A DNA stretch of 64,000 nucleotides, from the NCBI GenBank assembly GCA_052327205.1, contig CM126203.1, forward strand, positions 94,426,001 to 94,490,000. The letters run 5' to 3'. Each line of letters opens with the position of its first letter. The stretch's first letter is position 1. The notes beneath the pieces are model-generated. The model had not been told where the DNA came from, made no database searches, and saw only the letters and a program-made list of their open reading frames with translations. This DNA is from Somniosus microcephalus (Eukaryota). The position numbers and the translations under genes were made by a program. Below are positions 12,313 through 61,150 of this stretch, in pieces.

Positions 12313-12533
12313 ATTGATAGTAATGTTTTAAAATTGTTGAAATATTATATTATATTGTTTTAGTTGAGAGATACTTAATACTTATGTGCAATGTTACTAT
12401 TTGTTGTTGCTCACTTAGTATTGTGTCATGTTGAATAGTTTTATTTTGTCTGTGCATAGTTTTAGTTGTAAATAATTAATTATAAATTGTAAAGGTTATT
12501 TAGGTTGGAGTATATTTTAAAAGGAGGGGTGAA

Positions 12534-12762
12534 TGTGGTGATTATTCTTTGTTTAGTAAGAAGTATTGTGATTGGTTGTTTGTTTCCTGCCTTGGGATAT
12601 ATGCTGTAATCTCATTGGTAGTTGATGTCATGTGATTTGTGGTGGCCATCTTAAATTCAGTTCTTTCCAGCCTTTAGTTGGGACTGGGTGTTGAAAGATG
12701 TGCTACAGGATTTTTAAGTTAATAAAGCCTAGATTAGAAAGGCAAATCTATTCTTTATTTCA
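12534..12762 (+). repeat. 3' LTR of element A
   Basis: Direct repeat of 5119-5347, preceded by PPT. Confidence 0.95.
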
Positions 12763-29140: not shown

Positions 29141-29160
29141 TGAGGAATGAATGAAGCAGT

Positions 29161-29660
29161 NNNNNNNNNNNNNNNNNNNNNNNNNNNNNNNNNNNNNNNN
29201 NNNNNNNNNNNNNNNNNNNNNNNNNNNNNNNNNNNNNNNNNNNNNNNNNNNNNNNNNNNNNNNNNNNNNNNNNNNNNNNNNNNNNNNNNNNNNNNNNNNN
29301 NNNNNNNNNNNNNNNNNNNNNNNNNNNNNNNNNNNNNNNNNNNNNNNNNNNNNNNNNNNNNNNNNNNNNNNNNNNNNNNNNNNNNNNNNNNNNNNNNNNN
29401 NNNNNNNNNNNNNNNNNNNNNNNNNNNNNNNNNNNNNNNNNNNNNNNNNNNNNNNNNNNNNNNNNNNNNNNNNNNNNNNNNNNNNNNNNNNNNNNNNNNN
29501 NNNNNNNNNNNNNNNNNNNNNNNNNNNNNNNNNNNNNNNNNNNNNNNNNNNNNNNNNNNNNNNNNNNNNNNNNNNNNNNNNNNNNNNNNNNNNNNNNNNN
29601 NNNNNNNNNNNNNNNNNNNNNNNNNNNNNNNNNNNNNNNNNNNNNNNNNNNNNNNNNNNN
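29161..29660. other. Assembly gap, 500 N
   Basis: Run of n. Confidence 1.
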
Positions 29661-38005: not shown

Positions 38006-40059
38006 CAGGAAAGATTGAGCAGACTGGGGCTCTTTACTCCAGAAGAGGGAGGACTAAGAGGAGACGTGCATGTAACTTGTATTATTTACATATCTCAACA
38101 ACTTGTGTGATGACACGCTAAAGTGATATACGCATATATCTCAGGATCTATTTTACAGTACCAAGTTCTTTCAAGACAGTGATGACTTGTGGTGAGTTCA
38201 GCAGTTAGACCAAATTCAAAATCAATAAATCATACTGGGAGAAATCAACTTAGTCAATTTACATTATATTTTTATTCAGGCCTTTTAGGAAAATCCTGAT
38301 GGATCCAATGCATTTAAAACCACATTGATAATTTTGAGTATACTGACAAACATAGCAACATGTGAAATAGATGTGTAGAATAATTTTAAATATGTATTGA
38401 AGAAAAAAATATAGCTGAACATTGGAAAATTTAGAGTAAATTCAGTAAATTTCACCAGATTGAATTAAATTAATGGGAACATAATATCTGATGGGGTCTA
38501 ATGAATCAAAGGTTTGCCAAATAAATGGTTGCTGCTGGCATCCCTATTCTCTCACAGAAAACATTTTCACAGTAGTACAGCTTTGCTAACCTTTGCATTA
38601 GATCGGGAAAAACACTTTTTCTGAGTTTTAATGATACAAATAAAAACTGATTTTTAAAATGATTTTCTCTGAATTTCCCCAGTTATTTTGAGGTCCAATT
38701 TTTACTCCCTAATTTTCTCCTGGTTTTTGAATCTAAAAATAAAACCTGAAAACACTCAAAAACATGTTTTTAAATTGGCAATAAAAACTGACTAATGGTC
38801 CTTATTTGTAACAAATTAAATCATTTACAAAAATAATGAAGTGTTTAACTGATGAATTTTTCTTACAAATACATGGATTTTTTTTTATAACTTTAAATTC
38901 TGATTGAATCCAGTGCTGCCGACTTGGTTGTTCCTCTCCCTTATTTAGGTAGAAGGCAAACACAGTGAGAAAATGAGCCTAGTAAGCTTCTGCAGCCCTT
39001 CTGAAAACAAAACTGAGGACAAACAAACAAACCTATTTCTTATGTGATAGTTTGATTACCTCATCACAAAAATTACTGTGGAGAATGTGTTTTTTAATAC
39101 AGCAAAGTACTATCTTACTTTGAGTATTTTCTGTAAGATTGAATATGTCAAGTGCAATACAATACAAAACCACTTTGGAATGAAGAACCACGCTATCAAG
39201 CACAGTTAGCGATGTTTGTGAAATAGGCTCCATAGCCAATGCAAACTGACGGCCACATTTGTTGCATGCCCTTTGTTGTCCATTTCCTGACTCTTGCTGG
39301 TTGACATTTCTATAAAGATTCTTTTCTTCTGCTGTTAACACTTGAAACTGAATCAGTTATTGTTTATAGATATTCATAATATCAGTATCTCACTTTTGTG
39401 TAATTAATCTTGCATTAACTTTAATAATTGAACTGTACGGGCTGATAACATGGTGTTTTCCTGCCTTTCAAAGAGCACAGGAGTGCATGGTGGGTAACCC
39501 CTGCAACCTCTGGGGCAAAATAGTTTTGTAAAAGGATTATAATGTGCTACTACTTGTTAAGTCTGTGAATTATTTAGTTAATTAAAACAGACTAATGAGT
39601 AACAATAAAAACAGGTCTTTACTGGTTGGAGGTAGGGACTATACTGAATACAAGATTACTGCACAGTGCTTATATACCGGTGTGTTCACCCCCGGTATTA
39701 CGTCTACAGCAGCCTGAGAAAGTAGTACATCTCTTAAGGTGGAACAGGCTTAAGCTCTCTTAAGGTGGAACAGGTTACATACACAACACTCCTCCCTTCT
39801 TAGCTTTATAGTCATCCCCCCCATTTAACATAACGTAATAACATATATACATATATAACTTCATGTTTAACGTAACATATCACAGATTCAGTCTCTGCGG
39901 AAAACAGTTCACAGATTCAATCTCTGTGGTGTAGTCGGTTCACGTTACTCATTCAATAGTCCTTTCATGGATTTAACAGCTTGAACTTCCGAACTGATTT
40001 GGCTCCGTTCGGAGGGACCACGTGTGTGATCTGGTAGAGGTGATAATGGTTCAGATGGG

Positions 40060-42348
40060 TCATCTTCTGTTTTTACTTTTCCTTTTCTGCTTCTTGGAGA
40101 CTCTCTGGGCTCCATTGTCAGCTGCCACAGCTGCCAGCTGCATGCGCAGTTCCTCCTTCTCTTCCTCCTGTTTCCGTCGTAGAGCCAGCTTCTCCCGATG
40201 TTCCGTAGACTTTTGGTGCTCCTCCATGATTTCTGCACTTTGGGAGTCGAAGTTACAAGCTGGGCAGGACAGGACATCGTAATATTCGGTGTCGTCCACC
40301 AGGTCATGGTAATATTCGGTGTCGTCCTGAGCTAGACCAGTGAGAGGGTCGTCTATTTCCTCCATACCCAGCTGGACGTTAGCCAGCTCTTGTTCCAAAT
40401 CCAGACATCTTTCCTGAAGAGACTTCTTCATGTGTACCTCTGCATCCAGCTTTTTCTGGGCTTTCAGCAAGTCGTTTACTAGTGACCTCATTTGTGATTT
40501 TAATACTTCAACTTCCTTTGGAGATTGATCGATCGGACTATGCAATCCCTCTACCGGAGCAGCTGTTTCAGCGGTCTGTTGTTCTACATTGACGTGAGTC
40601 AGCGTACTTTTGGCATCCAATGGCTGCTCTGTTGCAGTCGTTTCAGTCTGTGTCGTCACATCAGCCATCTCAATGACTTTTGAGAGCTCCGAACCCTTTT
40701 CCTTTGAAGATCGCAGCTCGTGTTCAAGTTTTTCCCATTTCAGAGTCTTGTCCCTCAGCATATGGAGTTGGCTGACCGTTAACTCTTCTGACACCAGATT
40801 ATGGCACGCACCTTCAGAACCTGAATCAGCTTTGATTCGTTCGGCCTCCTCGCGCAGATGGTTGGTGTGCTCCTGCTCCATTTTCTCCATCAGTTGCTTC
40901 TGTTGACTTTCCAGATTCTCCCACTCTGTAACAAAGAACTTTTTTATTTCATTCATCTCTTGCTCAAAACGGCGAATCATTTGTTCTAATTGCTGTTGTA
41001 GTTTGAAATGGAGTTGAGTTCGAGCCCAGTGTCCCTCAAAAATGTGCATATCAGTAGACTTGACAGACTCAGAATTCTCTGTTAAACTATGTTGTTGTTG
41101 CTCAGTGGAATTCTGTGCTGAAACTTTGTCTTTTGCACATGGGTTGGTCTTACCATCATCAGTTCTAGAGTCTGGGCTGATTATCTGCACCGAGTTCTCA
41201 CTCTTTATGGCTTTTAGCGAATGCCAGTCCATATTTATGTTTCTAAACCACTCCCGGCCTAGTAGTGGTGGACCTCCCTCCGGTAGCACATATAAGTCCA
41301 TTATTTGACTTCCTTCGCCCTTGTTGGCCACTGCAACCTTTACTGTCCCGATGGGGTACACTCTCTGCCCCGTGTAGGTTGTCAATATAATCTCCGTATC
41401 CTGTAGGGGAATATGTTGGAATAACCTTCTGTAATCTTTCTTATTCATGACCGACAATGCCGATCCAGTGTCCAATTCCATTTTTACTTGGACTCCTTCT
41501 ATCTGAAGAGTAACCCAAATTGTCTGGAGGTCTGCACCCTTACCAACGTTGAGTACCCTTAAGCTAGCCAGTTCAATACTGCTTGCGTCTGAATCGGACT
41601 CCTGTTCGGCCACCTTGTGTACCTTTGCGTATTTCCCTTGCGGTGACTTCTTGTTGCTGGTCTTCTTCGCTGACCTGCATACTCTAGCTATATGTCCAAG
41701 CCTTCCACAAGTTCTACATTCTTGGTTTTTAAACCAACACTGGTTCTGATCATGCGTTGTCTTTCCACAACGATAACATTTGCCAGAACTCACACCCAAT
41801 TTGTGTGCACTGAGCTCCGGTGACCGTAGCTGCATTACTGCCGTGCCTCTCGCTGCGGCTTCGTGTGCTGCTGCCATAGTGACCACCTTCTCAAGCGTCA
41901 GCTCATTCTCCTCGAGCAGTCGCTTTTGTGTATCCTGTTTAAATAAACCACACACAAATTTGTCTCGAAGTGCCTCTGTCAGTCCCGTTCCAAACTGGCA
42001 ATATTTCGCTAATTTACGCAATTCCAGCAAATATTCAGCATTGCTTTCATGCTGTAGCTGCCTTCTGTCGTAAAATTTAAATCGTTCCGCTAGCATCAGC
42101 GGTGTGGGGTTTAGATGATCTTTCAGGACAGTAACAATCTCATCGAACGTCTTATCCGCCGGTTCATCTGGTGATAACAGGTGTTTCAATTGCCCGTATG
42201 TCTTCGCACCCATTAAATTTAATAATGTTAGAGCTTTATCTTGGTCACGAATTTTATTGGCCTTACAATAATTTTTTACTCTTTCAACATATATGGCCCA
42301 ATCTTCGAGGTCACTATCAAAGGTGCTAATATTCCCGTGTTTAGGCAT
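40060..42348 (-). CDS. 762-aa Gag-protease fused to STK10/SLK-like, optineurin-like and DNAJC21-like segments
   Basis: aa1-225 Gag with two CCHC, aa275-378 protease (ELDTGS, LLGREW), aa439-507 STK10/SLK-like coil, aa508-660 OPTN-like coil, aa~675-762 DNAJC21-like C2H2 finger and basic tail; no stops. Confidence 0.9.
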
Positions 42349-42755
42349 TGTAGATTTGCAATTTCTCAGATTTTATTTTCTTTACTTGTTATCAAAGATG
42401 GCGGCTTCCCGCTCTTGCCGTCGTCCTCCGCCCACAAAATGGCGGTTTTCCCGCACTTGGCGGTCTTCACCCGTCCCCCGACGCCGTCTCCCTTCAGCCC
42501 CCGAGTGCGGCCCTTATCAGCGGATGCGATCGATGGCCCAGCTGCGCCTCGCACTTGAAAGCGGCCCGGCCCTTATCTGCCGATCGCTATCGCCCTATAC
42601 CTCTCTCTTCCCCAGTCCTGTCTTCTACTCCGGTTCACAAGCTGATGGAGGCTTCAGGGTCCTAATGCCTGTCACTTCCAGTGGGGTGGTGAGTGGTGAG
42701 GTTTGAAACCTCTCTTCAACCGCCGTGGAATAACTGCCGCAGGGTAAGAACCTGA

Positions 42756-42765
42756 CTCGTCGCCA
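42756..42765 (-). promoter_or_regulatory. Primer-binding site of element B (tRNA-Ser(GCT) type)
   Basis: TGGCGACGAG one base after the 5' LTR; complementary to the ...CTCGTCGCCA tRNA end. Confidence 0.8.
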
Positions 42766-45700
42766 GTGTTAAGTCTGTGAATTATTTAGTTAATTAAAAC
42801 AGACTAATGAGTAACAATAAAAACAGGTCTTTACTGGTTGGAGGTAGGGACTATACTGAATACAAGATTACTGCACAGTGCTTATATACCGGTGTGTTCA
42901 CCCCCGGTATTACGTCTACAGCAGCCTGAGAAAGTAGTACATCTCTTAAGGTGGAACAGGCTTAAGCTCTCTTAAGGTGGAACAGGTTACATACACAACA
43001 CTACTTCTGTTCACAGCATACATATGGTGCAAGTTTCTGATCATGGAAGGCCTGAGTCTGCCTATGGAAACTGCATTTAGCTGTAAATATGATAGAGTTG
43101 GAGGAGAGCCTGAATTGTTAACATCCATTAATTAAAGGGAGTATGGTATCTGCCCCTCCAACCTCACATGCCACGACTCATTAGCCACATTTAAAGGAGT
43201 TCTGTCCTGGAACATAAACTACCTGTAATTCCCAGGAGAGAATGTGGAGCTAAAACCTCCATTCCAGTCCTTCTCCTTGAACAGCCAACATGCATAGACT
43301 CCAAAGAGATTAGAAGTGACCTGAAACTATCCCATAGATGTACTAACACCTTCAGTCTGGAGAGTCATTTGTTTCTCACTAAATTAATTGCTTTGATATT
43401 TTGCTTTGGACTTTGGAAGCTCATTTTATCTCCGTGAGTCGTAAAGAATCGTCCTTGAGATTGCAATTTCTAATGATGAATGGAAAGCTGTGGGTATCAG
43501 ATTTCTAGGTGACTGTTATCTTTTTGGGTCTTTTACTCTAGGATCACTCTCCTAGGTGAATTCCAACTTCCAGTGCCTTTGGGAATGCCTTCACAGCATT
43601 ATTATCCAGATAAAATGTTTGGTAATGTGCCCAGGGCAGTGAATAAAAACCGTGTCTCTCAGTTCTTCTTAAGCTACTAAAATTCTTTTCCTTCCACCAG
43701 ATCTATCTTCAGTCTATGATAAATAGAATATCATATCCCGACCTCAATTTAACTATAAATTATTATTAAATAAACAAGCAAATAAGTAACAATAATATAA
43801 CATACATATATAATATGTGGAAATGCTATGATCTATCCCCTTAATGGGGAAAATAGTAAAAGGTTGTGAATCTAAATACTAACCTGTATTTCTATAAACA
43901 ACTGTTCTGTACATAGCTCTCCTCTTTCTTGTCTTGTTACAAGCTTTGGGAGCTTAGTTTGTTCGATCTAAGTTTGTTCGATCAACTACACTGAGGACTG
44001 TTCTCCATTTGTTCCTTTTGTGTCTCCTGATCTATTGCCAAAGCTCATTAAAAATTAATAGCTGCCAACCTCATTCAAAAAGCAGCAAGCTACCAATTAT
44101 AACTGGATCAATCATGAAGTCTATATATTTGAAAATCATGTTAGATACCCTCTCAAGTCTTCTACAGGGAAACTATAAAAAAAATTGGAAACATATGTAA
44201 AGAAATAGGTTCAGATTGTAGGTAGCTTTTCAAAATCTGATGTATTGTACCTGATTTAAAAATACAGCTGCCAGACCAAAACAAGACAGTATTCCTTCAT
44301 ATTTGTCACAGTGGCACCTAGTAATCACTTGTGGGAGAGTGAACTTAAAATGTTATACTATATCTATCATCTTGCCAGGTCACCTACACCCAGAGATTGC
44401 TAATATTTTGGGGGGTAATTGTGAAGGGGTCTGCAATTTATTCCACGTCTTCTGGGATTCTCCCATGATTTGGGATATTTTAAGCAATGACCTTGTACAT
44501 ATTAGTGCCAATTCAGGTTTTTTTCAGTTATGATGGAGGAAATGCTGTTTCAAATGAGAAGATTGTAACTTTATATATTTTTTGATAGGATGTGGTCTGG
44601 CACTTGTATTTCTGCATCTGGTGCAAAGCGATCAGTATATAGTTGACATGATATCCTGCATTCATAGGTTTTTTTGGAGGGGGTGGTGGAAATATATATA
44701 ATCATCATGACCAAAGAATAGCTAGAGTATCCTAAGTGGATAGGTGTAAAAAAAGTTTCAGCTTGGTATTCTTACCACTGAACATTTTATTAGGTAGTGA
44801 TTTAAATGACAGTGAAGTTGTAATCACCTTAAATGATAGGGAGGTGGGTAAGACTACAGAAGGAGCCAAGCCCATGCAATATCAATGCAGGTGGCTTTGG
44901 AGGCACCTAGAGATTTTACAGGAGCAGAGGCTTCAGCAACCTAGAAAGACTAGTGGGCAGTTGTTCACAGGCAGAGGACCTGTTGTTGTAACTCTGAGCA
45001 CAGTGTAGGTGTGCAGGATAGCAGCAGGCCACCTGCACAGTGTTACTCATTACGCTGCTGCATATTGTGCACTGAGCAGGTCTGGCAAAGATTCAGCACA
45101 CTGACCTTACACAAGGGATGATGCAATGGCAAGTGGGGGGCTTTGACCTTGTAGCACTGTCCAATCTGTCATAGTCATTTGTCCAGAGAAGATGTTGACA
45201 TCTAATCAGAGAGGACGCATGATTAACAGTTCAATGCTACATCTCATCCAAGACATGGTAACCTTATGTAACTTGCCTACTTGAGAGAAGGGTACGGAGT
45301 CATGTAATTAACACATTAGCTGAGATTAACAGTCCGAGCTTATTGGAAGGCACAGTTGCTCAGTTAGGCAGTGATGAAGTCCGTGCAAAACTTTCAGTAC
45401 TAACACCAGACAAAGCTGGCTATGTGAGGTAATTTGTCTGTGATGGCAGCTGGGCAACAACCAGCCTCCTTACCACACAGTACACAAGACTGACAATTAG
45501 GGGAAGGATAAAATTTGTTACAAAGAAGAAAACAGAGTAGGAGTTAAGGGCAGTTTTGCAGACATGTTGGAAGTGAGTAGCAGTGTCCCACACAATTCAT
45601 GTCTGGAGCCACTTTAGAAAGCTGTGAACAAATCAGGACCTACCTGCAGTGTGAACAAAATGAGACCCTCTTAACACTGAAGAAATAGGTAGGTTTAATG

Positions 45701-46135
45701 CTCCAGAAATCACTAGCATAACTATAGTTGGAAAAAGCAGGCTCTCCTCAAAGTATTAAAATTGGCACTTGTGGTGAGATTGAAGTCTGTGGTTTATGTA
45801 TTTAAAAAAAAAGGATCTTCTCATTGTGCAGAAAGTAACGATGTTCCTATTGAACCAAAATTCAGGCCCACCTACTGCTGCAACAAATAATGGCTGTTTA
45901 ATTTTGTAAAGAACGCAGCCCTCCTTCTGATGAGAAAAATTAGGACCTGTTTACTTTCAAAAAATTGGGACCTTCTCTATTGTCAAAGAAGTTATGCAGT
46001 TTGGAAATCACACTGAACCACTTTCACAACTCCCCTCCTGAGAATTTATAACCTGCCAACTAGACACTCTGCCAACTCCCCCCTTGAAATAAGATACTTT
46101 GCTCATCCACCCCATTGATGCACTTTCAAAACCCT

Positions 46136-46880
46136 TAAGACAATCTCCCATCTCTCCACCTCTCGGGCACTCTACCACCTAATCCCCATTGAGGCACTTT
46201 CACAATCCCCTGAGACAATCTCCCATCTCTCCACCTCTCGGGCACTCTACCACCTAATCCCCATTGAGGCACTTTCACAATCCCCTGAGCCAATCTCCCA
46301 TCTCTCCACCTCTCGGGCACTCTACCACCTAATCCCCATTGAGGCACTTTCACAATCCCCTGAGACAATCTCCCATCTCTCCACCTCTCGGGCACTCTAC
46401 CACCTAATCCCCATTGAGGCATTTTCACAATCCCCTGAGACAATCTCCCATCTCTCCACCTCTCGGGCACTCTACCACCTAGTCCCCATTGAGGCATTTT
46501 CACAATCCCCTGAGACAATCTCCCATCTCTCCACCTCTCGGGCACTCTACCACCTACTCCCCATTGAGGTACTTTCACAATCCCCTGAGCCAATCTCCTA
46601 TCTCTCCACCTCTCGGGCACTCTACCACCTAGTCCCCATTGAGGCATTTTCACAATCCCCTGAGCCAATCTCCCATCTCTCCACCTCTCGGGCACTCTAC
46701 CACCTAATCCCCATTGAGGCACTTTCACAATCCCCTGAGACAATCTCCCATCTCTCCACCTCTCGGGCACTCTACCACCTAGTCTCCATTGAGGCATTTT
46801 CACAATCCCCTGAGACAATCTCCCATCTCTCCACCTCTCGGGCACTCTACCACCCAGTCGCCATTGAGGCACTTTGTCAA
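46136..46880 (+). repeat. 75-bp minisatellite, ~10 copies
   Basis: CAATCTCCCATCTCTCCACC recurs at 46141, 46216 ... 46816. Confidence 0.95.
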
Positions 46881-48578
46881 TCCCACACCACACTCCAGCA
46901 TTTCTTCCCAGCCCCGGAGACACTTTTACTTTCTTAGATACTTTACCCCCACCACCACTACTGAGCCACTTTACCCCTCACTATCGTAGTCTGGCACCCC
47001 AACACAGAGCCAGTTTACTCCCCACCGTCATTAAACATCCTGCCTAACCAACCCCACCGGCCACCTTGAAGACTTGCCAACCTCCCCACTGAGGTACTGT
47101 ACCAACCCTACCGCACTTTGTCAACTCCTCCACTGAGGCAGTATTGTAGCCTCCACCCGCCCCCCCCCCCGCCCCCACCAACCAAAGACACTTTTCCAGC
47201 TGCCCCCCTCCCCCCACTGAAGCACTATTCCAACTCCATCTGCTGGGGTACTTTTTGCTCTCTCTCACCCCTCTTCCCCACTAAGGTATTGATCCCCCCA
47301 TTGAGATATTTTTCCAACCTCTCCCCCACTGAGATACCTCTCTAAATTCTTCCCCTTTCCCCTCCACTCTCTGTCTCTCTCCTTCCTCCTCCGCTCTTGC
47401 CATCTCTCCTCTCCCTCTCCCTTCCTTCCTCCACTTCGGTCCAGTTATTCCCCTGCCCTGTAACCCTGCTTGATCTGAAGATAGCACTTAGACTTGACTA
47501 TCCATGTGCTACGTTAGGGAAATTGACTAGATATCTTTAATGTGGAATTAAGAGTTTTGGGGAGGAAAGAACAGCTACCTGTACCATAAGTAAGCCTTGT
47601 AAGATAATAGATAAACAATATTACAAAAATTTTACCTGTGAGGTCTTTAACAAACGTTAATACTTTTACTTTCTGGAAATCATGATATATTGCTTCAGTA
47701 GATTTGCTGCATTACAACATTGACATGTTATCATGCTTATTCTGTAAAAGGACCATGATAAACATCAGAAATTGCATTCTCAATCCCTGACTAGCCATGA
47801 GCAATGCCATGGGGATAATCTGGTGTGTGTATATATAGGTTTTTCCATATGTACATTTCAAAATCTGAGCTTTCATCTGGCCTTTCTGCATCTCTCAAAT
47901 ATACTAGAGAAGACCATAGCTTAATTCCAAAAATACAAAAAATAAATATTTCAAATCTCAAAAAAATGAAGGCAGCAAATCAAAAAAGAAAAAATCACAG
48001 ATATAATAGCTGAAAAATCCCTATCACTTAAATAAAATTAAAAAACTCCTGGAAAATTATTAAAAATACACAACCAATCTTCAGAGTAATTATAAAAACT
48101 AGGTGTAAGAAAAAAACTGCAAAATTAATGAAAAGAGGTACAATGAATCCAATATATAAATTTAAATTTCCTTATTTGCTGAAACAAATTAATTATGGAG
48201 ACGCAAGGGCTTGATGATCATGTTCTGACTGGTCAAGCTTATACCAATCCATATATTCTCCTAATCGTCTCAATCTTTGTGGTAACCTGAATTATAAGTC
48301 TGGAAGGCAAGCAATTTGAGATGTTTTTTCTATGTTAAAGGTATTATATGTTGTTGAAGTTTGGTTGAAGTTTCTCAGTATAATGAAAAAAATCACCTTT
48401 TCACATCCAGGTACAAAAGCAATTTAAAACAGTTGCATCCTTTCATACTGGTTTCATCTTCACACTTCATACCAGTAATGGCGTCAATTTAGATGCTGCA
48501 TGGTGATAATGTTAACATTCCATTTCTCCTTGTATAGACAAAACTATGAAAAGATGAGTACTCAGTTTGTGGCTTAGT

Positions 48579-50214: not shown

Positions 50215-50320
50215 ACCGGCAACAAGGTTGCGATGCAGATTTTATGGGGAACGAGGGGAGGACAGTTCCAACGTCACCGGTAGTGTCTAGGGACGACCCA
50301 GTTGAGAGAGAGGAGACCTC

Positions 50321-51378
50321 ATGACCACCACCCGTAGCGCCAAGTTTCAGCGAGGTTTTGGCAGCAAGTGGGGGGTGGAACCCGGGGTGGAGCCAGAGGT
50401 GGAGGCGGAGGTAGAGCAACCCCCACCAGAGAAGTCGGAGCCGGGACCGATGTGCCCAGCACGGCATCGGAGGTTCGGTCCACCCGCCAATGGCGACATT
50501 GAGGGACCCCTCCAAAACCAGTTCGTATTACCCTTTAACACCCAACAGCTTAGGGCTATGGTCAGCCATCTCCCAAGGCTCTCCGAAAAGGGAGACCCCT
50601 CGATCCACTTCAGGGAAGTAGAGCAAACCGCCAGCGTCAACGACTGCGATGACGCTGAGAAGGCCAAAATGCTGCTATTCTCCCTGGAGAGTAGTCTCCT
50701 CCAATCCCTCTCTGACGAGTGCAAAAGGGGGCAGTGCGGGTATGAGGAGCTTAGAGATGCGGTTCTGGAGGCCATGGGGATGGATGAGGGAAGTCCTTTC
50801 TCCCGTGTGGGGAAGACGATCCAGCTCTCGGGAAACCCCGCAGGCTTTTGCGGACCGGGTGTGGCTGGTGTACCGGAGGGCCTGTCTGGGGACGCCAGAC
50901 TGGGCGTTCCTAAACGGGGATTCCCTGACGCATTGGCTCCGTTGCCTGGTGGCAAACAGCTTGCCACAGGTCCGGGCCAAGGCAGAAGCCTGGTTCGATC
51001 CCAAAAATCCCCAGACCACCGAACTTACGGTAATTAGGCAGCTCACTCTGGCTTACAAAAACGGTAGGGGAGCCGATGCACACCCACCCAAGGGACAGGT
51101 GCATGAGGTAAAACCCGGACCGGGTAGGAAAGATTGGCACCAGGAAGGGAGTAACCCCCCCAACACCAAGACCAATTGTTATGGGTGTGGGAAGGATGGT
51201 CACTGGCGGAAGGAATGCAAAAACCCTTGGAAAGATAACAAGGGAAAGCATCCCACAGGCCCAGCCCAAAAGGCGGGGGCAGGGACCCCTTCCGCAGAGG
51301 TCGAGTCACTTTTGGACGCCATGAGGTCCTTGCTGACTGGCCAGGGGAGAGTAGCAGCTGCCACCGGTGCTCTCACCC
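50321..51378 (+). pseudogene. Element D gag (frameshift near 50830; last codons at 56914-56942)
   Basis: ORFs 50321-51037 and 50649-51413; ETPQAFADRV, CYGCGKDGHWRKEC. Confidence 0.8.
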
Positions 51379-51648
51379 TGATGTGCCTCAATGAATCCGA
51401 GACTCAACGTTAACGGAGCAAAGCAAGGCTTTTATTAACTCGGAAAGTAATACACATTGGAGAAGTGTCTCTCATCCAGAGATCTGCTGTACTGGATGTG
51501 AGACACGCTGGGCCTGCTTAAGTAGGGGCCAGGTATGGGCGGAGCCCTACACACAATACAATACAGGTAAGGAAATGAAACTGAAACTAAACTAAACACA
51601 GAGAATACAGTGCCTGATGAATGGCATATTTCATCACATTCGCCCCTT

Positions 51649-52139
51649 CTACAGATTTAGTCTGTTCGGGGGTTTGGTAGTCCTCTGTGACCGACGTAGC
51701 GGTTGTGGTGCTGCGGGTGTCGGCTGGGTGTCCCCGGTGGCCTCCTGGGTCTCTGCCGGGGGCGCCGCCAGGGTTGTTGAAGGGGTAGTTGGTGGGGGCA
51801 CCGTTGGTCGGTGTTCTTCCGGGGGTGATGAAAGAGTAGTGGGTGGGTAAGAGTTGCTGTGATCGTTGTTGCTGTTGTTGTCGTGGTTGTTGTCGTTACC
51901 GGCTGGGGCGACGTCTTTTATGGACACGGTGTCCTCCCTTCCGTCGACGTGCCGGACATACGCGTATTGGGGGTTGGCGTGGAGTAGGTGCACTGACTCC
52001 ACGAGAGGGTCCGTCTTGTGGCCCCTCACATGCCTTCGTACAAATACCGGACCTGGGGTGGAGAGCCATGACGGCATGGATACGCCTGAGGTGGATTTCC
52101 AGGGAAAGACAAACATTCGTTCATGAGGCGTGGCATTAG
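51649..52139 (-). pseudogene. Element C integrase C-terminus
   Basis: TNATPHERMF...DPLVESVHLLHANPQYA...LRRSQRTTKPPNRLNL*; homologous to element A. Confidence 0.88.
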
Positions 52140-53353
52140 TGTCAGGGTTGGGGAGCCACGGGGCCGTATAAATACGAGGCCGTGCTCTCCGGGTGAGGTA
52201 GGTTCTGGACCCAAGTGCAGAAACCAAACAGGAGGCAAATATACAGTACTTTGTTTGAACTTTACTAGATTCACACATAACTAGATTAACACAGCAATAT
52301 ACATAAGAACTAGAGACAAGAGAACTCGAGACAGAAACATAAGCATACATAAGAACTAGAGACAAGTTACAAGACAGCTAGTCAAGATAGGAACTCAGGA
52401 CAGCTTCCATGAGGAAGCCCACTTGTCTATACTGAGCTTGCGACAAGCTACCACAAGGGGCAATCGGCTTGCCGAGGCAAAACTCCAGACAAGCTACCCC
52501 AAGGGTAATCGGCTTATCAATGCAAAGCTCAAGACAAGATCCCAACGGCTCCCACATAGCAACACGCTTGTCCAAACAGCACCTTACCAAGACAAGCAAC
52601 TAAACAGAACAACAGACTTAAATACATCTTATATCCAGAGACAAGAACACAGACTTAGATACATAGCTCGAGAGAACTAGAACACAGACTTAGATACATA
52701 GCTCGAGAGAACTATGGCAGCCAGCTTGTGAAGGCAAGCTGCCATAGAGCAAAGGCTAGTCACACAGAGCACCTAGTCAAGACAGAGGACATTGTCAAGA
52801 CTAACTCCCTGGTCCACCCTAGTGAGGACTGAGCAAAGAATGAAGCAACAACAGAACTTATATACCAAGAAACCAGGTGAAACCCATGAACAGCTAACAG
52901 GCCGTTAAGAATTAACACAGGGCTAGGAACAATTAACAAAGGCACAAACAAGTGAAGGTGCCAGCGGGCAGGTTGGAGGACCTCCTCGTGGGTCTGCTCC
53001 TGGGCCTGGCCAAGAAAGCCATTAATTGGTCCAGGCAGCGGGCGGTCGAGGGGGTCGTCCGACCGGATTGCCTCCCTCTCTTCCGTGGCCATGTTCGCGC
53101 CCGGGTGGCCCTAGAGATGGAGCACGCGGTGTCCGCCGGCGTGCTCGAGCAATTTCGTGACCGGTGGGCGCCGCGGGGACTGGAGTGCATAATTAGTTTA
53201 AATGAGCAAATTTTAATTTGATTTGTTAAGGTTTATTTAAAGGTTTATTAGAGTTTCGTTTACAGTTTATTTGTTTAACTCATTTGTCTCGCAAAAGAAG
53301 CAAGTGAAGGTGCCATCTAGAGGTTAGGAAAAGGACTGACTGGCACCGTCACA
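52140..53353. mobile_element. Solo LTR inserted in element C integrase
   Basis: TGTCA...TCACA termini, TSD ATTAG (52135-52139, 53354-53358); removal restores LCTATN-ATPHER. Confidence 0.85.
52964..53300 (+). mobile_element. 5'-truncated Tx1/L1-clade LINE 3' end inside the solo LTR
   Basis: 15-bp TSD CAAGTGAAGGTGCCA (52949-52963, 53301-53315); DLLVGLLLGLAKKAI...LFRGHVRARVALE...FRDRWA resembles Tx1 ORF2 C-terminus; T-rich 3' UTR. Confidence 0.82.
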
Positions 53354-56300
53354 ATTAGTGGCAGTACACAATAGCGACCGTATCGAATGGAGCACATCTG
53401 GGAGGACTTCCTGCCAGCGGGAGATAGGGAGGCCCTTGGTCCTTAGAGCTAGAGTGACTGCTTTCCATACTGTCCCGTTCTCTCGCTCCACTTGACCGTT
53501 ACCCCGGGGGTTGTAGCTGGTGGTACGGCTTGTGGCGATCCCCCTGGACAGCATGTACTGGCGTAGCTCTTCACTCATGAAGGACGCCCCCCTATCCGTA
53601 TGGATGTAGCTCGGCATACCGAACAGGCAGAACAGGCTGTTGAGGCATTTAATGACCGTGGCGCTGGTCATGTCTCGGCAGGGGAAGGCGAATGGGAAAC
53701 GGAAGTATTCGTCCACAATGTTCAGGAAGTAAACATTGCGGTCGACTGACGGGAGGGGGCCCTTGAAATCTAAGCTGAGCCGCTCAAAGGGCCGTGTAGC
53801 TTTGATTAAGTGGGCTCTATCTGGGCGGTAGAACCGAGGCACTCAGCGCAAGTGCGGCAGTTCCTGGTCAGAGACCGAACTTCCTCAATCGAGTAGGGTA
53901 AGTTGCGGGACTTTATGAAGTGGAACAGCCGTGTGACCCCGGGGTGGCAGAGGTCGTTGTGGAGGGTCTGTAGCCGATCCCCGGTGGTGCTGGCACACAT
54001 CCCTCGTGAGAGGGCATCGGGGGATTCGTTAAGGGCCCCTGGCCGGTAAATGATGTCATAATTGAAGGTGGAGAGCTTGATCCGCCACCTAAGAATCTTA
54101 TCATTTTTAATCTTCCCCCTCTGTTTATTATTGAACATAAACGCTACCGACCACTGGTCGGTAAGTAGGGTGAAGCGTTTGCCGGCTAGGTAGTGCCGCC
54201 AGTGGCGCACTGCCTCCACGATGGCTTGGGCCTCCTTTTCCACGGAGGAGTGTCTGATCTCGGGCCCTTGGAGGGTCCTCAAGAAGAAAGCTACGGGCCG
54301 CCCCGCCTGGTTGAGGGTGGCCACCAAGGCAAAGTCAGCCGCATCACTTTCCACTTGAAAGGGAGTGTTCTCGTCCACTGCCTGTAGCGTGGCCCGCTCA
54401 ATATCCCGCTTAATGCTTTTGAAGGCGGCATGGGCCTCAGCAGAGAACGGAAAAGAGGATGCTTTCAAGAGGGGGCGGGCTTTGTCGGAGTAGTTGGGGA
54501 CCCATTGGGCATAATAAGAAAATAACCCCAGGCACCTTTTCAGGGCTTTGGGAGTGTTGGGCAGGGGCGGCTCCCGTAGGGGGCGCAATCGGTCGGGGTC
54601 TGGTCCAATTTCCCCATTCTCCACCACGCTGCCTAGTATGCAGAGGCGCGTGGTGTTGAAAACGCACTTGTCCTCGTTGTAAGTGAGGTTGAGTTTTTGT
54701 GCGGTTTTCAGGAACCTCTCGAGGTTCGAGTCGTGATCCTGCTGGTTGTGACCGCAGATGGTGACGTTGTCGAGGTAGGGGAAGGTTGCCTGCAAGTGGT
54801 GGTCATCGACCATGCGGTCCATCTCCCTCTGGAAGACCGAGACCCCATTCGTCACCCCAAAGGGGACTCTGAGGAATTGGTAGAGGCGTCCGTTCGCCTT
54901 GAAGGCGGTGTACGGGCGGTCCTCTGGTCTGATAGGGAGCTGGTGGTACGCTGACTTGAGGTCGATGGTGGCGAACACCCGGTATTGGGCGATTTGGTTC
55001 ACCATCTCGGATATGCGGGGTAGCGGGTAGGCGTCTAGCTGGGTGTATAGATTAACTGTCTGGCTATAATCTATCACCATCCGCTTCTTCTCGCTACCCC
55101 TCACCACCACCACTTGGGCGTGCCACGGGCTGTTGCTGCGTTTGATAATGCGCTCCTTCAGGAGCCTGTCTACCTCGGTCGCGATAAACCGCCTGTCCTC
55201 CCAGCTGTACCTCCTGCTTTTGGTCGCTATTGGCCGGCAGTTGGGAGTAAGGTTCGCGAGTAGCGAAGGCGGCTTTACCTTCAGGGTAGCCAGACCGCAC
55301 ACTGTGAGGGGCGGCTGGGACCCACCGTACTTGAGCGTGATGCTTTGGTGGTGGCACTGGAAATCCAGGCCCAAGATCACGCTCGCACATAGATTCTTCA
55401 TGATTAGTAATTTAAAATTATCGTATACAGTTCCGTTAACGGACAATTGTACCGCGCAGTAACCCATAACGGTCGATGTCTGGGTTTTATCAGCCATAGA
55501 GATGGTGCCCCGAGCAGGGACCACCGTTACAGAGAGTTGTTGTGCCAGTTCCAGGTGGATAAAACTCTCCGTGCTTCCACTGTCAAATAAACATTTAACC
55601 CCGCACCCATTTACCTCGATGTCCACCATTGATTTGGATAGCGGGTGCGGTCTGGTCTGGTCCACTGTGACCGATGCCACTGTAGGGCCCTGATCGAGAC
55701 AAGATGGCGTCCACGCTGTCTGCTCACAAGATGGTGGACCCCACGAGGTCGGGCAAGATGGCGTCCAAGATGGCCGCTCCCACGGCGCACACGCGGCGGT
55801 GGCGGGTTTTCCAGCGGGGTTCCCTCTGCACACCTTCCCGAAGTGCCCCTTCTTACCGCACTTAAAGCAGGTGGTGCCTTTCGCCGGGCACAGGTTTCTG
55901 GTGTGCTTCGGCTGCCCGCAGAAGTAGCAGTTGGGGCCCCGACGCGTCGCGGCTGTCGTAGGGCTTCTGGGGGGAGAGCGGGGCCCCGATGGTGTCGGGC
56001 TGCCGGGCGGGGAAGATGCCTTCCAAGATGGCAGCGCCCTTGGTGCACACGTGGCGGCGTGGGCGGCGCGGGCTGAAGAGTAGGCGTCCGAGTTTCTCTG
56101 GGCCACATCCAGGGATCGCGCTGTGTCCACAGCCTGTTTCAGGTCCAATCCCGTTTTTTCCAGTAATCTCTGCCGGATGTAAGTGGAGCTGAGGCCTGTG
56201 ATAAAGGCATCACGAACAAGCTCGTCAGTGTACACTGCGGCTTTTACATCTTGGCACTTGCAGTCTTTGCCAAGCGTTTTCAGGGTGACTAGGAACTCAT

Positions 56301-56622
56301 CCAGCGATTCCCCAGGTCGCTGTGCGTGACTAGCGAGCAGATGCCTAGCGTACACCTCGTTCATAGGCTGCTGGTAATGCGCCTTTAGGATGTCGCAGGC
56401 GGCCGAGTACGTGTCGGCGTCTTGGATGAGGGGGTAAACCCGGTGGCTTACCCAATTCCGCAGGATTCCGAGTTTCATACTTTCAGCGTCCGTAGCGCCT
56501 GTGATGGCTGCGGAATTGTCCAGGAAGAATTCCATACACTTAAACCAGTGTCCGAATCGTGCCGATGCATCCGAAGCATGCGGGTCCAAATCCAAACGTT
56601 TGGGTTTCAAGAGTTGGTCCAT
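53354..56622 (-). pseudogene. Element C gag-pol (frameshift near 53840)
   Basis: ATG 56622 MDQLLKPKRL; two CCHC, LFDSGS, YLDN, RNase H, HHCC, integrase core in ORF 53324-53842. Confidence 0.92.
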
Positions 56623-56942
56623 TGCATTGAAAATTGAGTTAATAAAATTGATGTGCCTCAATGAATCCGAGACTCAACGTTAACGGAGCAAAGCAAGGCT
56701 TTTATTTACTCGGAAAGTAATACACATTGGAGAAGTGTCTCTCATCCAGAGATCTGCTGTACTGGATGTGAGACACGCTGGGCCTGCTTAAGTAGGGGCC
56801 AGGTATGGGCGGAGCCCTACACACAATACAATACAGGTAAGGAAATGAAACTGAAACTAAACTAAACACAGAGAATACAGTGCCTGATGAATGGCATATT
56901 TCATCACACACCCCATCCGTCCCATCCAACCCACAGCCGTGA

Positions 56943-59900
56943 CTAGAGCCAGCGCAGCCTGTTTATCTGTGTTCTCTCCGATACGATGAGTGGAAAAGAC
57001 CCCTTTTGGAGATGGAGGTGGAGAAGGAGAAGGTGACGAGGACCTATCTGTTAGACACGGGGGCATCATGCACCATGGTCTACTCAGCTAACCCCACCAC
57101 CTCACCTCTCTCCAACGGGGTCCCATACAGTCTATCGGGGTTCACGGGTAGGGAACAGGCTGGCTCGTTTTCCATCCCGCTCACCATTCGGTTAGGACCG
57201 CTCCGCTCCAAGTGGACCTGTGTCCTGATGAAATGGGACGTGGAGGGTGGAAGAGTGGTCCTGGGGGCCGACTTTATTGTAGGCCATGGGATCCTAGTGG
57301 ATTTGAGGAATCACTGCCTTTGGGGGGCAGGTAAAGTAAAGAACGGAGAGGTCGTAGTAATCCCGGGAAAGGAAGGGAAGGGGACACTCTGCACCATGAA
57401 GCCCAAAGAGGATTATAACCTCGGGCTCATGGTCAGCAACACCCCACCAGAATTCCAGGCATTTGTGCAGGCCCACCTGGCCACATTTGCCACTCACAAG
57501 CACGACTGCGGGAGGGTCACAGGGTTTGAGGTCAGCATAGACGGGAACCCTGTGGCCCGACCACAGAAACAATATAACTTCCCCAGGGAAGCAGAGCCGG
57601 ACATGGAAGCAGCCATGTCCTCGTTAGTGCAGCAGGGAGTTCTGAGACCGATAGCTACCCACGTGAATTCTCCATTATGGCCGGTCAGAAAGCCGGACAA
57701 TTCCTGGAGGGCCACGGTGGATTATCGAGTGCTCAATAGTAACATCACAGCCTGCGCACCCACAGTAACAGCAGTTGCCGACCTCATCGGGAGTATTCCA
57801 GCATCCGCGACCACTTTCACGGTGCTGGATATTTCAAATGGGTTTTGGTCCATCCCTGTAAGGAGGGAGGATCAGTACACGTTTGCCTTTACGTTTAAGG
57901 AGCAACAGTACACATGGAACTGTTTGCCTCAGGGCTTCCACAACAGCCCCAGCATTTTCCATCAGTGCATGGCCAACAGTTTGAAGGATTTTAGCCAGCC
58001 CAGACAGTTGGTTCAATATGTGGATGACCTGCTCCTGTTCACTGATTTGAAAGAGGAGCATGGTCCGCTATTGGCCGAACTGCTGGAGCTGTTAGGGCAG
58101 AAGAGTTTCAAAGTAAACCCCAAGAAAGCGCAGATCGGCCAGCAGGAGGTGAAATTCCTCAGTCTGACCGTGTGCACTGGAGAAAGGGCCATAGATAAGG
58201 CTAGGAAGGAGGCGGTACAAGAACTACCGGTCCCTAACACAGTAACGGGTGTGAGGTCGTTTCTAGGGCTAACCGGGTACTGCAGAGACATTATTGAGGA
58301 CTATGCAGCCACCGCAGCCCCTCTGCTCCGACTCCTACACAAGGGAGTGGAGTGGCTTTGGGATGAGGGTTGCCAGGCAGCATTTGTCAGGCTCAAGAAA
58401 GACTTGCAGACCGCGCCAGCTTTAGGGGCCATAGATGGGGGGAAAGAGTTTTTCCTGGAGGTAGCAGCCAGCGGGGACAGCCTGAGTGCTGTGCTGCTCC
58501 AAGAGCGGCACGGCCGGCTGCGGCTGGTGGTCTACTCCTCTGGGATACTCACAGATGTGGAAAGGAGCTATTCCAATTGTGAGCGGCATCTTTTGGCCAC
58601 ACATTGGGCTGTGAAAAGATCATTGATCTTCACAGGCACCTCTCCCATCACCCTCCTCACCCATCACACACCTACCCAGATGCTTCTGGACGGGAGGATC
58701 AAGGATGGGACAGTGAGCAGTGCCCGCATTGCCCGCTGGACTTTGCTCCTCTCACAGATGGATCTAAAGGTGAAGGGTCTCTGTGAGCCAAGGCTTGCAG
58801 CCAACATGGTATATCCTGGAACAGCCCACTGTTCCATTGAAGGGGTTTGGGAAGTAAACACAGGTTTACGGGCCGGGATACATCCCACAGGCTGCGAAAT
58901 CTATGTAGACGGTTCCAGCACGGTATCTGCTGGCGAGCATCTCACGGGGTGTGGGGTTTACGACCCAGCGCAAACATTGCCTTGGCGATTAAGCTCCCCA
59001 GCACCATGAGCGCCCAGCAGGCTGAACTGTCTGCGGTGGTGTACGTTGTTACACACCCCGAAATCTTCCCCACCCCCTATGCGATTTGCTCGGACAGCAT
59101 GTTCACGTGCAATTCATGTACGGAGTACCTGGCCATCTGGTCCCGCCGCGGATACACCTCCGCTAACGGGAGACCCCTCACAGTAAAACCCCTGCTGGAA
59201 AAGATCCTGGCAGCAGTGGGGGAGGAAGGGGAGGTTTTCATCCACAAGGTGAAGGCCCATTCCTCCACAGAACCCCGCGGCCAAGGCAACCAGCAGGCTG
59301 ACTTGCTCGCCAAGGAGGGTGCCCGCACAGGCACTTTCTGGGACCCATTTGGGTCCAGACCCATGGCGGCGGTCAGAGGTAGGGACGGGACCCAAGGGAG
59401 TGTAGGGGTAGCATTAGCCCCGGACCTAAAGACGGTCCAAGCCGAAGACCCTGTCCTAAAAGCAGTCCTCAGCGCTGTAGCTGCGGGAAATGGAGTAGAA
59501 GGTCCGTATGGCACAGCGACCCTCTCCGTTAAAGAGGGCATGCTGTTCCGGGGGGAACAGTGGGTTGTGCCGCAGCAGCACCGGAGGGAATTCCTTCAAC
59601 TGGCCAATGAGGGTCCAGGAGCGGGACACCCCAGGCCTGAGACCACCTGGCAACAGGTGGAACAGGCGGGATGGTGGCCGGGACTCAGGGACGATGTCCA
59701 TGAATTCTGTGCAGGCTGTCTTGTGTGCGCTGCGAACAACCCCGACCCCCACAAAAGGAAAGTCCCTATGGGACACGTCAGGAGGGTAGAGGAACCATGG
59801 CAGTCGATACAAGTCGACTACATTGGGCCCCTGCCCACCGCCCAGGGAGGCTATAAGTACTGCCTAGTCCTGGTGGACGTGTTTACCAAGTGGGTAGAGG

Positions 59901-61150
59901 CCTTTCCCTGCAGAACAGCCACAGCTCTGGGTACTGCCAGGAACCTGGTCCGGGAAGTGTTCTCGAGGTGGGGAGTACCACAGTATGTGGAGTCCGACCA
60001 AGGGAGTCACTTCACCGGACAGGTGATGCAGAACACCCTGATGCTGCTAGGCATTGAAGGGAAATGGCACATGGCCCACAACCCCCAGTCATTGTGGATT
60101 GTAGAACGCATGAATCGGACCCTGAAAGAAAGCTTAAGAAAGGAAACGGTGGACTCGCCCCGTAAATGGGCCGAGGTCCTACTGTTGGTTTTGATGGGGA
60201 TCCGGGCCAGCTAGTCTAAAAGCATGGGGTATTCCCCGTACGAGCTAATAACTAGCAGGGTTATGCGGACCCCTACCCATGTACTAGCCCCGGTGCTCAC
60301 GGAGGGTCAACTCAGGGAGGTAAACCAGGACAGACAGGTTTGCCCGAAACCTCTTTGAGCACCTGAAGCAGGTCCATGAGCAGGCGGCTGGAAACATGGA
60401 AGGCAGCATCGGAGTAACCGATTGCTGCTCGAACCCAGAAAGCACCATGAGTGGGAGGTAGGAGATCAGGTCATGGTAAGAAACTATGCCCGAGTAGGGA
60501 GTTTGGAGCCATTGTACATGGGGCCCTACAGCATTGTAGATAAAGCCAGCCCCATGGTATACGCCGTGAAGATGCCCCGGTGTACAAAATGGTTTCATAT
60601 CAACCAGTGTAAGCTGTTTACACCTGAAAGGGGAAAACAGCCAGTTGGGAAAAGGGCTGAGGATAAAGATCCTCAGCCTGCAGCAGGAGCGAGTTCACAG
60701 ACTGCACAGGCAGGCGCTGTGGCTTGCTTAAAGGGAGGGGCCATCCCGTCCATTGATTGGGACACTCCCCCACTCTTCTGGGATCCAGACGAGGGGAAGG
60801 GACCTGAGGGCGAAAACCCCGCCCCTAACCCAGGTGTAGAGAGGGAGGGACCTGAGGTCGAAAACCCCGCCTCGGACCCAGCCATGGGACCTGGGGGCGG
60901 AGGCTCTCAGCTCGCAGCAGCAGGCTGCGAAAAGTTACCTGCCCCCAGCCCAGGTTTGGGAGGGGTCAAGCCTGAGGGAGCAGCGGTTCGGGTTAAAGGC
61001 CCAGCGGCCAAGAAAGCCCCACCCGTCAAGGCCCCCAGAAGGTCCCCACGGACGCCCCAGCCGAGAAAGCCATGGTCACCTGCCCTCCAGTTATCAAGGG
61101 CCGCCCTTGAGCTAGGGAAGGGCCCAAGGACAGAGGTCCTCAGCCAGTAG
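56943..61150 (+). pseudogene. Element D pol: PR-RT-RH1-RH2-IN with frameshifts/stops
   Basis: LLDTGA, NSPLWPVRKPD, LDISNGF, LPQGF, YVDD, CERHLLA (degenerate RH), IYVDGSS/SAQQAEL/SDS/KVKAH/GNQQAD, IQVDYIGP, SDQGSHF, GPY. Confidence 0.92.

What the first reader, a model, noticed from the sequence alone, without database searches (positions are those of the whole stretch)
39555..43000. Intact, recently inserted LTR element whose Gag-protease ORF is fused in frame to a mosaic of three host-gene-like fragments
Seen: identical 234-bp LTRs, CTACT TSD, PBS, PPT and one uninterrupted 762-aa ORF; after the protease there is no RT, RNase H or integrase, but ~380 aa of non-retroviral sequence. Recognised from memory of the human proteins: consecutive blocks resembling STK10/SLK, optineurin and DNAJC21, intron-free and all in frame. 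Inference: serial capture of host mRNAs by template switching, then mobilisation in trans as a unit (identical LTRs imply a young insertion). The blocks look diverged yet the frame is open across all junctions, suggesting selection on the fusion protein or at least on an open frame. This is analogous to gene transduction by acutely transforming retroviruses, but in a vertebrate Mag-type retrotransposon; I do not know of a description.
Basis: partly seen in the sequence, partly recalled or inferred. Interest (0 to 1): 0.93.

Follow-up and report, generated by a model that had tools for sequence, protein, structure and literature searches.

The report
Shark retrotransposon carrying host-gene mosaic
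A jumping gene in a shark genome has swapped its copying enzymes for stitched-together pieces of ordinary shark genes, and has spread to hundreds of places while keeping the hybrid protein readable, which shows host gene pieces being shuffled and multiplied by a parasite on an unusual scale.

Summary
Confirmed, and larger than reported. The 3446-bp element (identical 234-bp LTRs, CTACT duplication, PBS, PPT) encodes Gag-protease fused in frame to pieces of STK10, OPTN and DNAJC21. A further STK10 piece lies out of frame behind the stop. The STK10 and OPTN pieces join host exons at GT/AG, so they came from spliced mRNA. It is one of about 250 or more loci in several young subfamilies, up to 26% apart in Gag. 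They differ in cargo (one lacks DNAJC21, one adds an unnamed coiled-coil block). The window's subfamily put the cargo on a different Gag-protease. A young pol-bearing family with near-identical LTR ends is the candidate helper. Gag and protease are under strong purifying selection (dN/dS 0.17, 0.28). The cargo is near neutral to weakly constrained (0.56-1.3), yet 11 of 11 shared large indels keep the frame. The family is transcribed in two RNA runs. Best reading: a semi-autonomous Gypsy element whose cargo is an in-frame filler replacing pol. Translation and any cargo function are unshown. It works like maize Bs1 and LTR-mediated retrocopies, so it is a new variant of a known kind.

The parts
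43001..43005 (.). target-site duplication CTACT (5' side of the element)
42767..43000 (-). 5' LTR, 234 bp, TG...CA; first 32 nt match the candidate helper family at 31 positions
42756..42765 (-). primer-binding site TGGCGACGAG, shared by the subfamilies; priming tRNA not identified
40060..42348 (-). 762-aa fusion ORF (763 aa in most sister copies; this copy lacks one codon at aa 529)
41569..42348 (-). Gag with two zinc knuckles; dN/dS 0.17 on internal branches
41203..41526 (-). aspartic protease, DTG at aa 293-295; dN/dS 0.28
41027..41204 (-). STK10 piece from the large central exon (aa about 400-478), with an in-frame internal deletion
   Evidence: 94% and 90% nt to host
40826..41037 (-). STK10 PKK coiled-coil piece (aa about 616-686), joining two host exons without the intron
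   Evidence: 95% and 88% nt to host
40355..40834 (-). OPTN piece: 43 nt of one exon, then four consecutive exons joined at their splice sites (aa about 228-384)
   Evidence: 77-92% nt to host
40076..40354 (-). DNAJC21-derived piece: degenerate C2H2 finger with all four ligands kept, and a basic end; host exon not found in the assembly
39948..40074 (-). further STK10 piece (aa about 325-388, internally deleted) that spans an exon junction; out of frame here, holds the ORF's stop; in frame in subfamily B and L047
39911..39947 (-). remnant of the pol C-terminal tail
39789..39804 (-). polypurine tract
39555..39788 (-). 3' LTR, identical to the 5' LTR
39550..39554 (.). target-site duplication CTACT (3' side)

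Best explanation
A semi-autonomous Ty3/Gypsy LTR retrotransposon family. ORIGIN (junctions shown, order inferred): a reverse transcriptase copying a single-ORF Gag-Pol element left its RNA in the pol tail and entered a co-packaged STK10 mRNA at a short homology. It hopped to OPTN mRNA, returned to the downstream part of the STK10 RNA, and went back to the element just after the protease. It left STK10 at the same 11-14 nt where it had entered. That fits one round of copying on one molecule cut by RNase H at the entry point, or a circular template. RT, RNase H and integrase were replaced by about 580 codons of host sequence in frame. Later rounds swapped in DNAJC21 and an unnamed coiled-coil block, trimmed the cargo by in-frame deletions, and moved it onto another Gag-protease (the window's subfamily). 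LIFE CYCLE (inferred): each copy is transcribed from its LTR and makes its own Gag and protease, which favour its own RNA. It borrows RT and integrase from a related autonomous family. ROLE OF THE CARGO (inferred): mainly a soluble, acidic, helical in-frame filler that keeps translation running to near the 3' LTR and ends in a basic peptide like the native pol tail. The benefit would be RNA stability (no long 3' UTR) or delivery of that basic end, not the host proteins' activities.
For: Intron loss at GT/AG for STK10 and OPTN in all 6 of 6 copies compared with the host genes. Microhomologies of 4, 9 and 13 nt inside the cargo, and the same STK10 motif at both element junctions, with a 14-nt overlap of the last and first STK10 blocks. 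At least 70 loci of the window's subfamily; 30 of 38 keep the full frame. At least 150 loci of subfamily C, 74 of 150 with an open frame of 978 codons or more. 15 loci of subfamily B. dN/dS on internal branches: Gag 0.17 (p 2e-34 against 1), protease 0.28 (p 1e-14); cargo 0.93, 0.56, 0.70, 1.34, 0.77, 2.0. 11 of 11 shared or lineage-defining cargo indels of 15 nt or more are in frame, two by compensating frameshifts (my tally); p 0.001 even if microhomology favours frame at 0.55. 5 of 5 ORFs checked end with 7-11 K/R in the last 15 residues, from two different sources. Gag-protease and cargo trees conflict, p-AU 3e-48 and 1e-4. Candidate helper: 78 copies at 98-100%, 26 of 78 with frames of 1304 codons or more, PR-RT-RH-IN order, Gag-PR 83-87% and LTR ends nearly identical. 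RNA covers all 30 of 30 bins in two runs.
Against: The OPTN core and the STK10 PKK piece are somewhat constrained: 0.60 (p 0.0008) and 0.58 (p 0.02) in the thinned set, though OPTN is only p 0.08 on internal branches alone. The four zinc ligands of the DNAJC21 finger are kept in 76 of 76 copies matched. Both point beyond pure filler. In the other direction, small cargo frameshifts are shared by more than one copy (L038/L070; L045/L046 with the same 4-nt loss in L040 and L051), so the frame is not indispensable. Single-copy large indels are also mostly in frame (16 of 19, leaving out three insertions of other sequence), which partly reflects mutational bias; the in-frame share of microhomology pairs is 0.43-0.6. 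The 6 of 7 gene-to-gene joins in native frame are not significant under that bias (p about 0.1). No protein evidence. The helper is a candidate only: its LTR body is 74-77% like the window's.
Confidence: 0.58

Rival explanations
1. The cargo is a working part selected for its protein activity. Coiled coils could dimerise Gag-protease or help it co-assemble with the helper's Gag-Pol. The OPTN and STK10 pieces could act as decoys for host partners. The finger and basic end could bind the element's RNA or bring it into the nucleus.
For: OPTN core dN/dS 0.60-0.70 and PKK piece 0.56-0.58. Zinc ligands kept in 76 of 76 while 39 of 56 columns of that block vary. The OPTN core survives in all subfamilies and across a change of Gag-protease. 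The captured parts are predicted as long helices (low-confidence model), and the added block also looks coiled-coil.
Against: Four of six cargo blocks do not differ from neutral. Subfamily C, the largest, has a frameshifted stretch and helix-breaking changes in the OPTN core. L091 lost 217 codons of OPTN and has young LTRs. The STK10 kinase domain and the OPTN ubiquitin-binding end were not captured.
Confidence: 0.25
2. The cargo is a neutral passenger. Only Gag-protease is selected; the frame stays open because microhomology-guided switches favour codon phase and time has been short.
For: In-frame share of microhomology pairs is 0.43-0.6. Shared cargo frameshifts exist. Polymorphism inside the window's subfamily is neutral.
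Against: Cargo has drifted to 74-92% of the host in subfamilies A and C, yet the dominant form of each keeps one frame. Two compensated frameshifts; 11 of 11 shared large indels in frame. 20 of 20 loci picked by Gag-protease alone still carry cargo, one of them truncated.
Confidence: 0.14
3. A domesticated chimeric host gene, with the copies as by-products.
For: High RNA depth; some constraint on OPTN.
Against: Every fetched copy of the window's subfamily is a young dispersed insertion with LTRs 0-2 changes apart (two with small indels). Private changes are neutral. No older fixed copy was seen.
Confidence: 0.02
4. Assembly artefact.
For: The host OPTN exons carry two extra single bases in this assembly, so local errors exist.
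Against: 37 of 37 loci with their own target duplications; diverged subfamilies; the stretch is held by public runs of three organism labels at word shares of 0.50-0.78.
Confidence: 0.01

Closest known systems
Bs1 of maize (as described in PMC5131818 and PMC13317346, passages; primary paper not held)
   Same: LTR element carrying fragments of three host genes that form a hybrid ORF; secondary retroposition with shared switch points.
   Different: Bs1 has 1-5 copies in Zea and one of three pieces out of frame. Here there are about 250 or more loci in a vertebrate, several active subfamilies with exchanged cargo, and measured selection on Gag-protease.
LTR-mediated retrocopies in animals (PMC5131818, passages)
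   Same: Partial spliced mRNAs flanked by LTR element sequence, microsimilarity at switch points, multi-gene cases, co-transcription.
   Different: In the passages read these are single loci or a few secondary copies, often decaying. Here the chimera founded a long-lived high-copy family that kept one ORF.
TR-GAG and other Gag/protease-only 'semi-autonomous' elements of plants (PMC13570524, passages)
   Same: Keeps Gag and protease, lacks RT, RNase H and integrase.
   Different: Described from plants; no host-gene cargo is mentioned in the passages read.
Host fragments in transposon consensus proteins (PMC3597677, passages)
   Same: Captured fragments inside TE proteins, some under purifying selection (8 of 24 testable cases there).
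   Different: A Repbase-wide survey; no pol-replacing multi-gene mosaic appears in the passages read.
Acutely transforming retroviruses (recalled)
   Same: Helper-dependent genome with host coding sequence fused to Gag.
   Different: No env in the element or in the candidate helper; no catalytic host domain captured.
Intronless OPTN copy listed in a shark genome preprint (10.1101/2024.09.09.611499, section 7)
   Same: Single-exon OPTN copy flanked by LINE or LTR sequence in a shark.
   Different: Treated there as a host gene duplication; no Gag fusion is described and STK10 and DNAJC21 do not occur in its main text. Whether it is this family was not tested; supplements were not seen.

Membership tests
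Ty3/Gypsy LTR retrotransposon | TG...CA LTRs, PBS, PPT, short target duplication | tested here: met
Ty3/Gypsy LTR retrotransposon | Gag with zinc knuckles and aspartic protease | tested here: met
   49% over 390 aa to a 1315-aa Gag-Pol
Ty3/Gypsy LTR retrotransposon (autonomous) | RT, RNase H, integrase in that order | tested here: not met
   absent in the element; present in the pol-bearing relative, so the element is a non-autonomous derivative
Mag lineage | placement by RT tree among named Mag elements | not tested
   no named references on hand; the label is recalled. Nearest named hits are 'K02A2.6-like' single-ORF proteins of about 1310-1330 aa
LTR-mediated retrocopy | intron loss relative to the parent gene | tested here: met
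   STK10 and OPTN exon joins; not testable for DNAJC21, whose exon was not found
LTR-mediated retrocopy | microsimilarity at switch points | tested here: met
LTR-mediated retrocopy | co-transcription with the element | tested here: inconclusive
   RNA depth in all 30 bins, junction bins included, but short reads pooled over many copies
Bs1-type chimeric element | several host genes in one hybrid ORF inside LTRs | tested here: met
Bs1-type chimeric element | low copy number (1-5) | tested here: not met
Bs1-type chimeric element | translation of the hybrid ORF | not testable with these tools
   no ribosome or protein data
TR-GAG | Gag/protease kept, enzymes of pol lost | tested here: met
   works like one, but carries host cargo and is not from a plant
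Acutely transforming retrovirus | env-bearing infectious helper | tested here: not met
   the candidate helper's 3' LTR starts about 90 nt after the pol stop
Acutely transforming retrovirus | captured active signalling domain | tested here: not met
   kinase domain of STK10 not captured

The most novel reading that the evidence does not exclude
A vertebrate retrotransposon family has evolved a modular accessory protein from host coiled-coil and zinc-finger pieces. It uses this protein to assemble particles, bind its RNA or blunt host autophagy/innate signalling, and it exchanges modules between subfamilies as viruses exchange accessory genes.
Probability: 0.25. Interest if true: 0.9.

Novelty: new variant of a known kind. 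Interest (0 to 1): 0.74.

Why it matters
LTR gene capture is known mostly as single or few loci. Here it founded a family of hundreds of young copies with a readable history: first capture, module gain, trimming, change of Gag. That makes an open question testable in a vertebrate: whether captured host fragments pay their way for the transposon or merely ride. The permuted STK10 piece gives an unusually clear record of template switching. Practically, such copies will be annotated as lineage-specific duplications of OPTN, STK10 or DNAJC21, which can mislead gene-family and longevity arguments in shark genomics and confound RNA-seq of those genes.

Tried and rejected
PDB sequence search of aa 381-762: no match. 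No protein spanning Gag and cargo among the 45 hits or the best 150; exact look-ups of two ORFs found nothing. Polymorphism inside the window's subfamily says nothing on selection: 217 of 255 variants are single-copy and pN/pS is 0.5-1.7. Eight matches that seemed to end at position 2684 are full copies split by the aligner. SLK as the source was rejected. The extra block of subfamily C stayed unnamed: no Pfam family, only generic coiled-coil clusters in the Atlas, host gene hidden by copies. A RAI14/ANKRD24-like origin is recall only. Its dN/dS is void because L051 was misaligned there. The DNAJC21 parent: one upstream exon found and none further in 70 kb. The single-sequence fold is low confidence, pLDDT 42, and was not searched. 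No RNA holder was listed in the index; RNA evidence comes from two raw-read runs added by species label. Two low-share runs showed short junction-spanning pieces at depth 2-4: suggestive of the mosaic in other organisms, not proof. Earlier scan findings: none. Literature searches without a description of this family.
Full report
OBSERVATION. The element lies on the minus strand at 39555-43000. Its 234-bp LTRs are identical and flanked by CTACT; PBS and purine tract are in place. The ORF at 40060-42348 has 762 codons. Residues 1-382 are Gag and protease, 49% like a 1315-aa single-ORF Gag-Pol, and the likeness ends at residue 382. Pfam finds no RT, RNase H or integrase but finds PKK at E 1.5e-10. 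The best homologues of residues 381-762 are shark OPTN (69%) and STK10. Residues 660-762 gave 3 hits, all DNAJC21, at E 1e-3 to 2e-2. A less diverged copy, L047, is 77% like DNAJC21 there. The hits place the genome among sharks.

ORIGIN FROM mRNA. The host genes lie at G000:C8 (STK10) and C17 (OPTN). In 6 of 6 copies compared, the cargo follows host exons and skips introns at GT/AG. In the window this gives four OPTN exons in a row and two STK10 exon joins, at 77-95% identity. For DNAJC21 only one upstream exon was found, so intron loss is untested there. The host OPTN has two extra single bases in this assembly. These may be errors, and mis-polishing by element reads could inflate host-to-element identity.

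A FAMILY, NOT A LOCUS. The whole element found 38 copies at 98-100% (37 of 3739 candidates scored). All 37 loci fetched have a 5-bp target duplication, and 30 of 38 copies keep the full frame. A Gag-protease search added 29 loci; 20 of the 29 were fetched and all carry cargo, one truncated. The OPTN block added 3 close and 15 diverged loci at 78-92%. Most of these are complete elements with LTR pairs 97-100% alike. Subfamily B (15 loci) lacks DNAJC21, carries longer STK10 and OPTN pieces, reads through to the pol tail, and in L084 is 96-99% like the host apart from one exon with a deletion. Subfamily C adds about 230 codons of unnamed coiled-coil sequence and has at least 150 loci, 74 of 150 with frames of 978 codons or more. 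The sum is about 250 loci, a lower bound. Gag differs by up to 26% between subfamilies.

HOW THE CAPTURE HAPPENED. In subfamily B the cargo reads STK10 375-478, STK10 616-686, OPTN 131-430, STK10 307-388. The inner joins have 4, 9 and 13 nt of overlap. The last STK10 block ends at the host position where the first begins, with 14 nt in common. That motif also resembles the pol-bearing relative at both exit points, after the protease and in the pol tail. These joins are shown. I infer that the polymerase entered and left one STK10-containing RNA at the same point, either because RNase H cut it there or because it was circular. STK10 and OPTN would then have been taken in one round. DNAJC21 replaced the end of OPTN later, and the C block later still (cargo tree rooted on the host). 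The window's group nests with subfamily C by cargo but lies outside by Gag-protease; both forced trees are rejected (p-AU 3e-48, 1e-4; 15 copies plus outgroup, groups named after the first trees were seen). So its cargo moved onto another Gag-protease.

HELPER. L057 is inserted in a pol-bearing relative with the order PR-RT-RH-IN. It is 83% like the window and 87% like L084 in Gag-protease, and its LTR begins with 31 of the same 32 bases. Its pol found 78 copies at 98-100%, 26 of 78 with frames of 1304 codons or more (my count). This is a plausible source of RT and integrase. It is not shown to be the helper, and its LTR body is only 74-77% like the window's.

SELECTION. I fitted a codon model (GY94, branch lengths scaled from nucleotide trees, stops masked, one frameshifted stretch of subfamily C removed) to 16-41 rows per block. 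On internal branches dN/dS is 0.17 for Gag and 0.28 for protease. For the cargo it is 0.93 and 0.56 (STK10 pieces), 0.70, 0.77 and 2.0 (OPTN parts) and 1.34 (DNAJC21); only 0.56 differs from 1 (p 0.04). In a thinned set the OPTN core is 0.60 (p 0.0008). So the element needs its own Gag and protease, while cargo residues are weakly held. The frame is held more firmly: 11 of 11 shared or lineage-defining cargo indels of 15 nt or more keep it, two through compensating shifts (my tally). Microhomology itself favours frame at 0.43-0.6, which leaves p about 0.001 for this tally but only about 0.1 for the 6 of 7 gene-to-gene joins in native frame. Against a strict need for the frame, small cargo frameshifts recur in several young copies. 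For a protein role, the four zinc ligands are kept in 76 of 76 matched copies. All 5 ORFs checked end in a basic peptide, from the altered pol tail in B and L047 and from DNAJC21 in A and C.

EXPRESSION. Two raw RNA runs, added by species label and not known to be from the window's individual, laid 18120 and 14992 reads on the internal region at 90% likeness or more; 4781 and 2938 were at 99% or more. All 30 bins are covered. In X19 first mates lie mostly on the plus strand, which in most stranded libraries means sense RNA of the element; X20 is weakly biased. The reads pool many copies and subfamilies, and translation is unshown. Runs of three organism labels hold half or more of the words. 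A fourth shows short junction-spanning contigs at low depth.

MECHANISM. Most likely (0.58) the cargo is an in-frame filler in place of pol, in an element that makes Gag and protease itself and borrows the other enzymes. A working accessory protein (0.25) and a pure passenger (0.14) are the rivals. The benefit I propose, RNA stability or delivery of a basic end, is inference from general knowledge of nonsense-mediated decay and LTR polyproteins, not a result.

COMPARISON. It works like maize Bs1 and like the multi-gene LTR-mediated retrocopies of animals (PMC5131818, passages; PMC13317346, passages). In coding content it resembles plant TR-GAGs (PMC13570524, passages). Captured fragments in TE proteins have been surveyed (PMC3597677, passages). 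It fails the tests for a transforming retrovirus. 'Mag' is a recalled label; two papers (PMC2774666, PMC8556966, passages) gave no criteria I could test. A shark genome preprint lists an intronless OPTN copy near LINE or LTR sequence as a host duplication (10.1101/2024.09.09.611499, passages and section 7); its supplements were not seen and may bear on this. Five searches of the held library found no description of this family; Repbase, Dfam and most subscription journals were not searched.

VERDICT. Real, and a new variant of a known kind. What is new is the scale and the history: a multi-gene capture that founded a high-copy, still active vertebrate family with module exchange and a preserved frame. 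Interest 0.74; 0.9 if the cargo proves to be a working accessory protein (probability 0.25).

Noticed in passing
window 5119-12762: A second young LTR element (identical 229-bp repeats, Gypsy-type Gag-Pol pieces on +) interrupted by a CR1-like LINE at about 6975-10250.
   Followed up: no
window 51379-56908: A Gypsy-type element on - with identical 260-bp repeats, nested in another LTR element whose ORFs run over 50306-61150 on +.
   Followed up: no
window 61875-62879 and L056: 3' end of a full-length single-ORF Gypsy element with LTRs 99% alike and stops in pol; only distantly related to the finding.
   Followed up: partly
L104:5056-5730 (G000:C3:354658271-354658948): Intronless copy of the STK10 3' end (aa 753-977, 97%) with no LTR pair or Gag nearby; probably a separate processed retrocopy.
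   Followed up: partly
L080, L081 and neighbours (G000:C17:85.88 Mb): Host OPTN exons carry two extra single bases that break the frame in this assembly; error or real not resolved.
   Followed up: partly
L064 and L068: Two copies have insertions of 686 and 1376 bp at the same point of the STK10 block.
   Followed up: no
L031 (G000:C12:20224464-20231127): Two copies in tandem sharing one LTR, with a single target duplication.
   Followed up: partly
L053:4068-4763: Unnamed 232-aa coiled-coil block in the largest subfamily; RAI14/ANKRD24-like by recall only; part of it is also in L051 and L054.
   Followed up: partly
protein P0139: An unnamed public protein joins a related Gag and partial protease to an acidic stretch and C2H2 fingers, perhaps an independent capture in another organism.
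   Followed up: no
window 45979-47028: Tandem array of 75-bp units.
   Followed up: no
window about 29160-29660: Assembly gap of about 500 N beside a low-complexity repeat.
   Followed up: no
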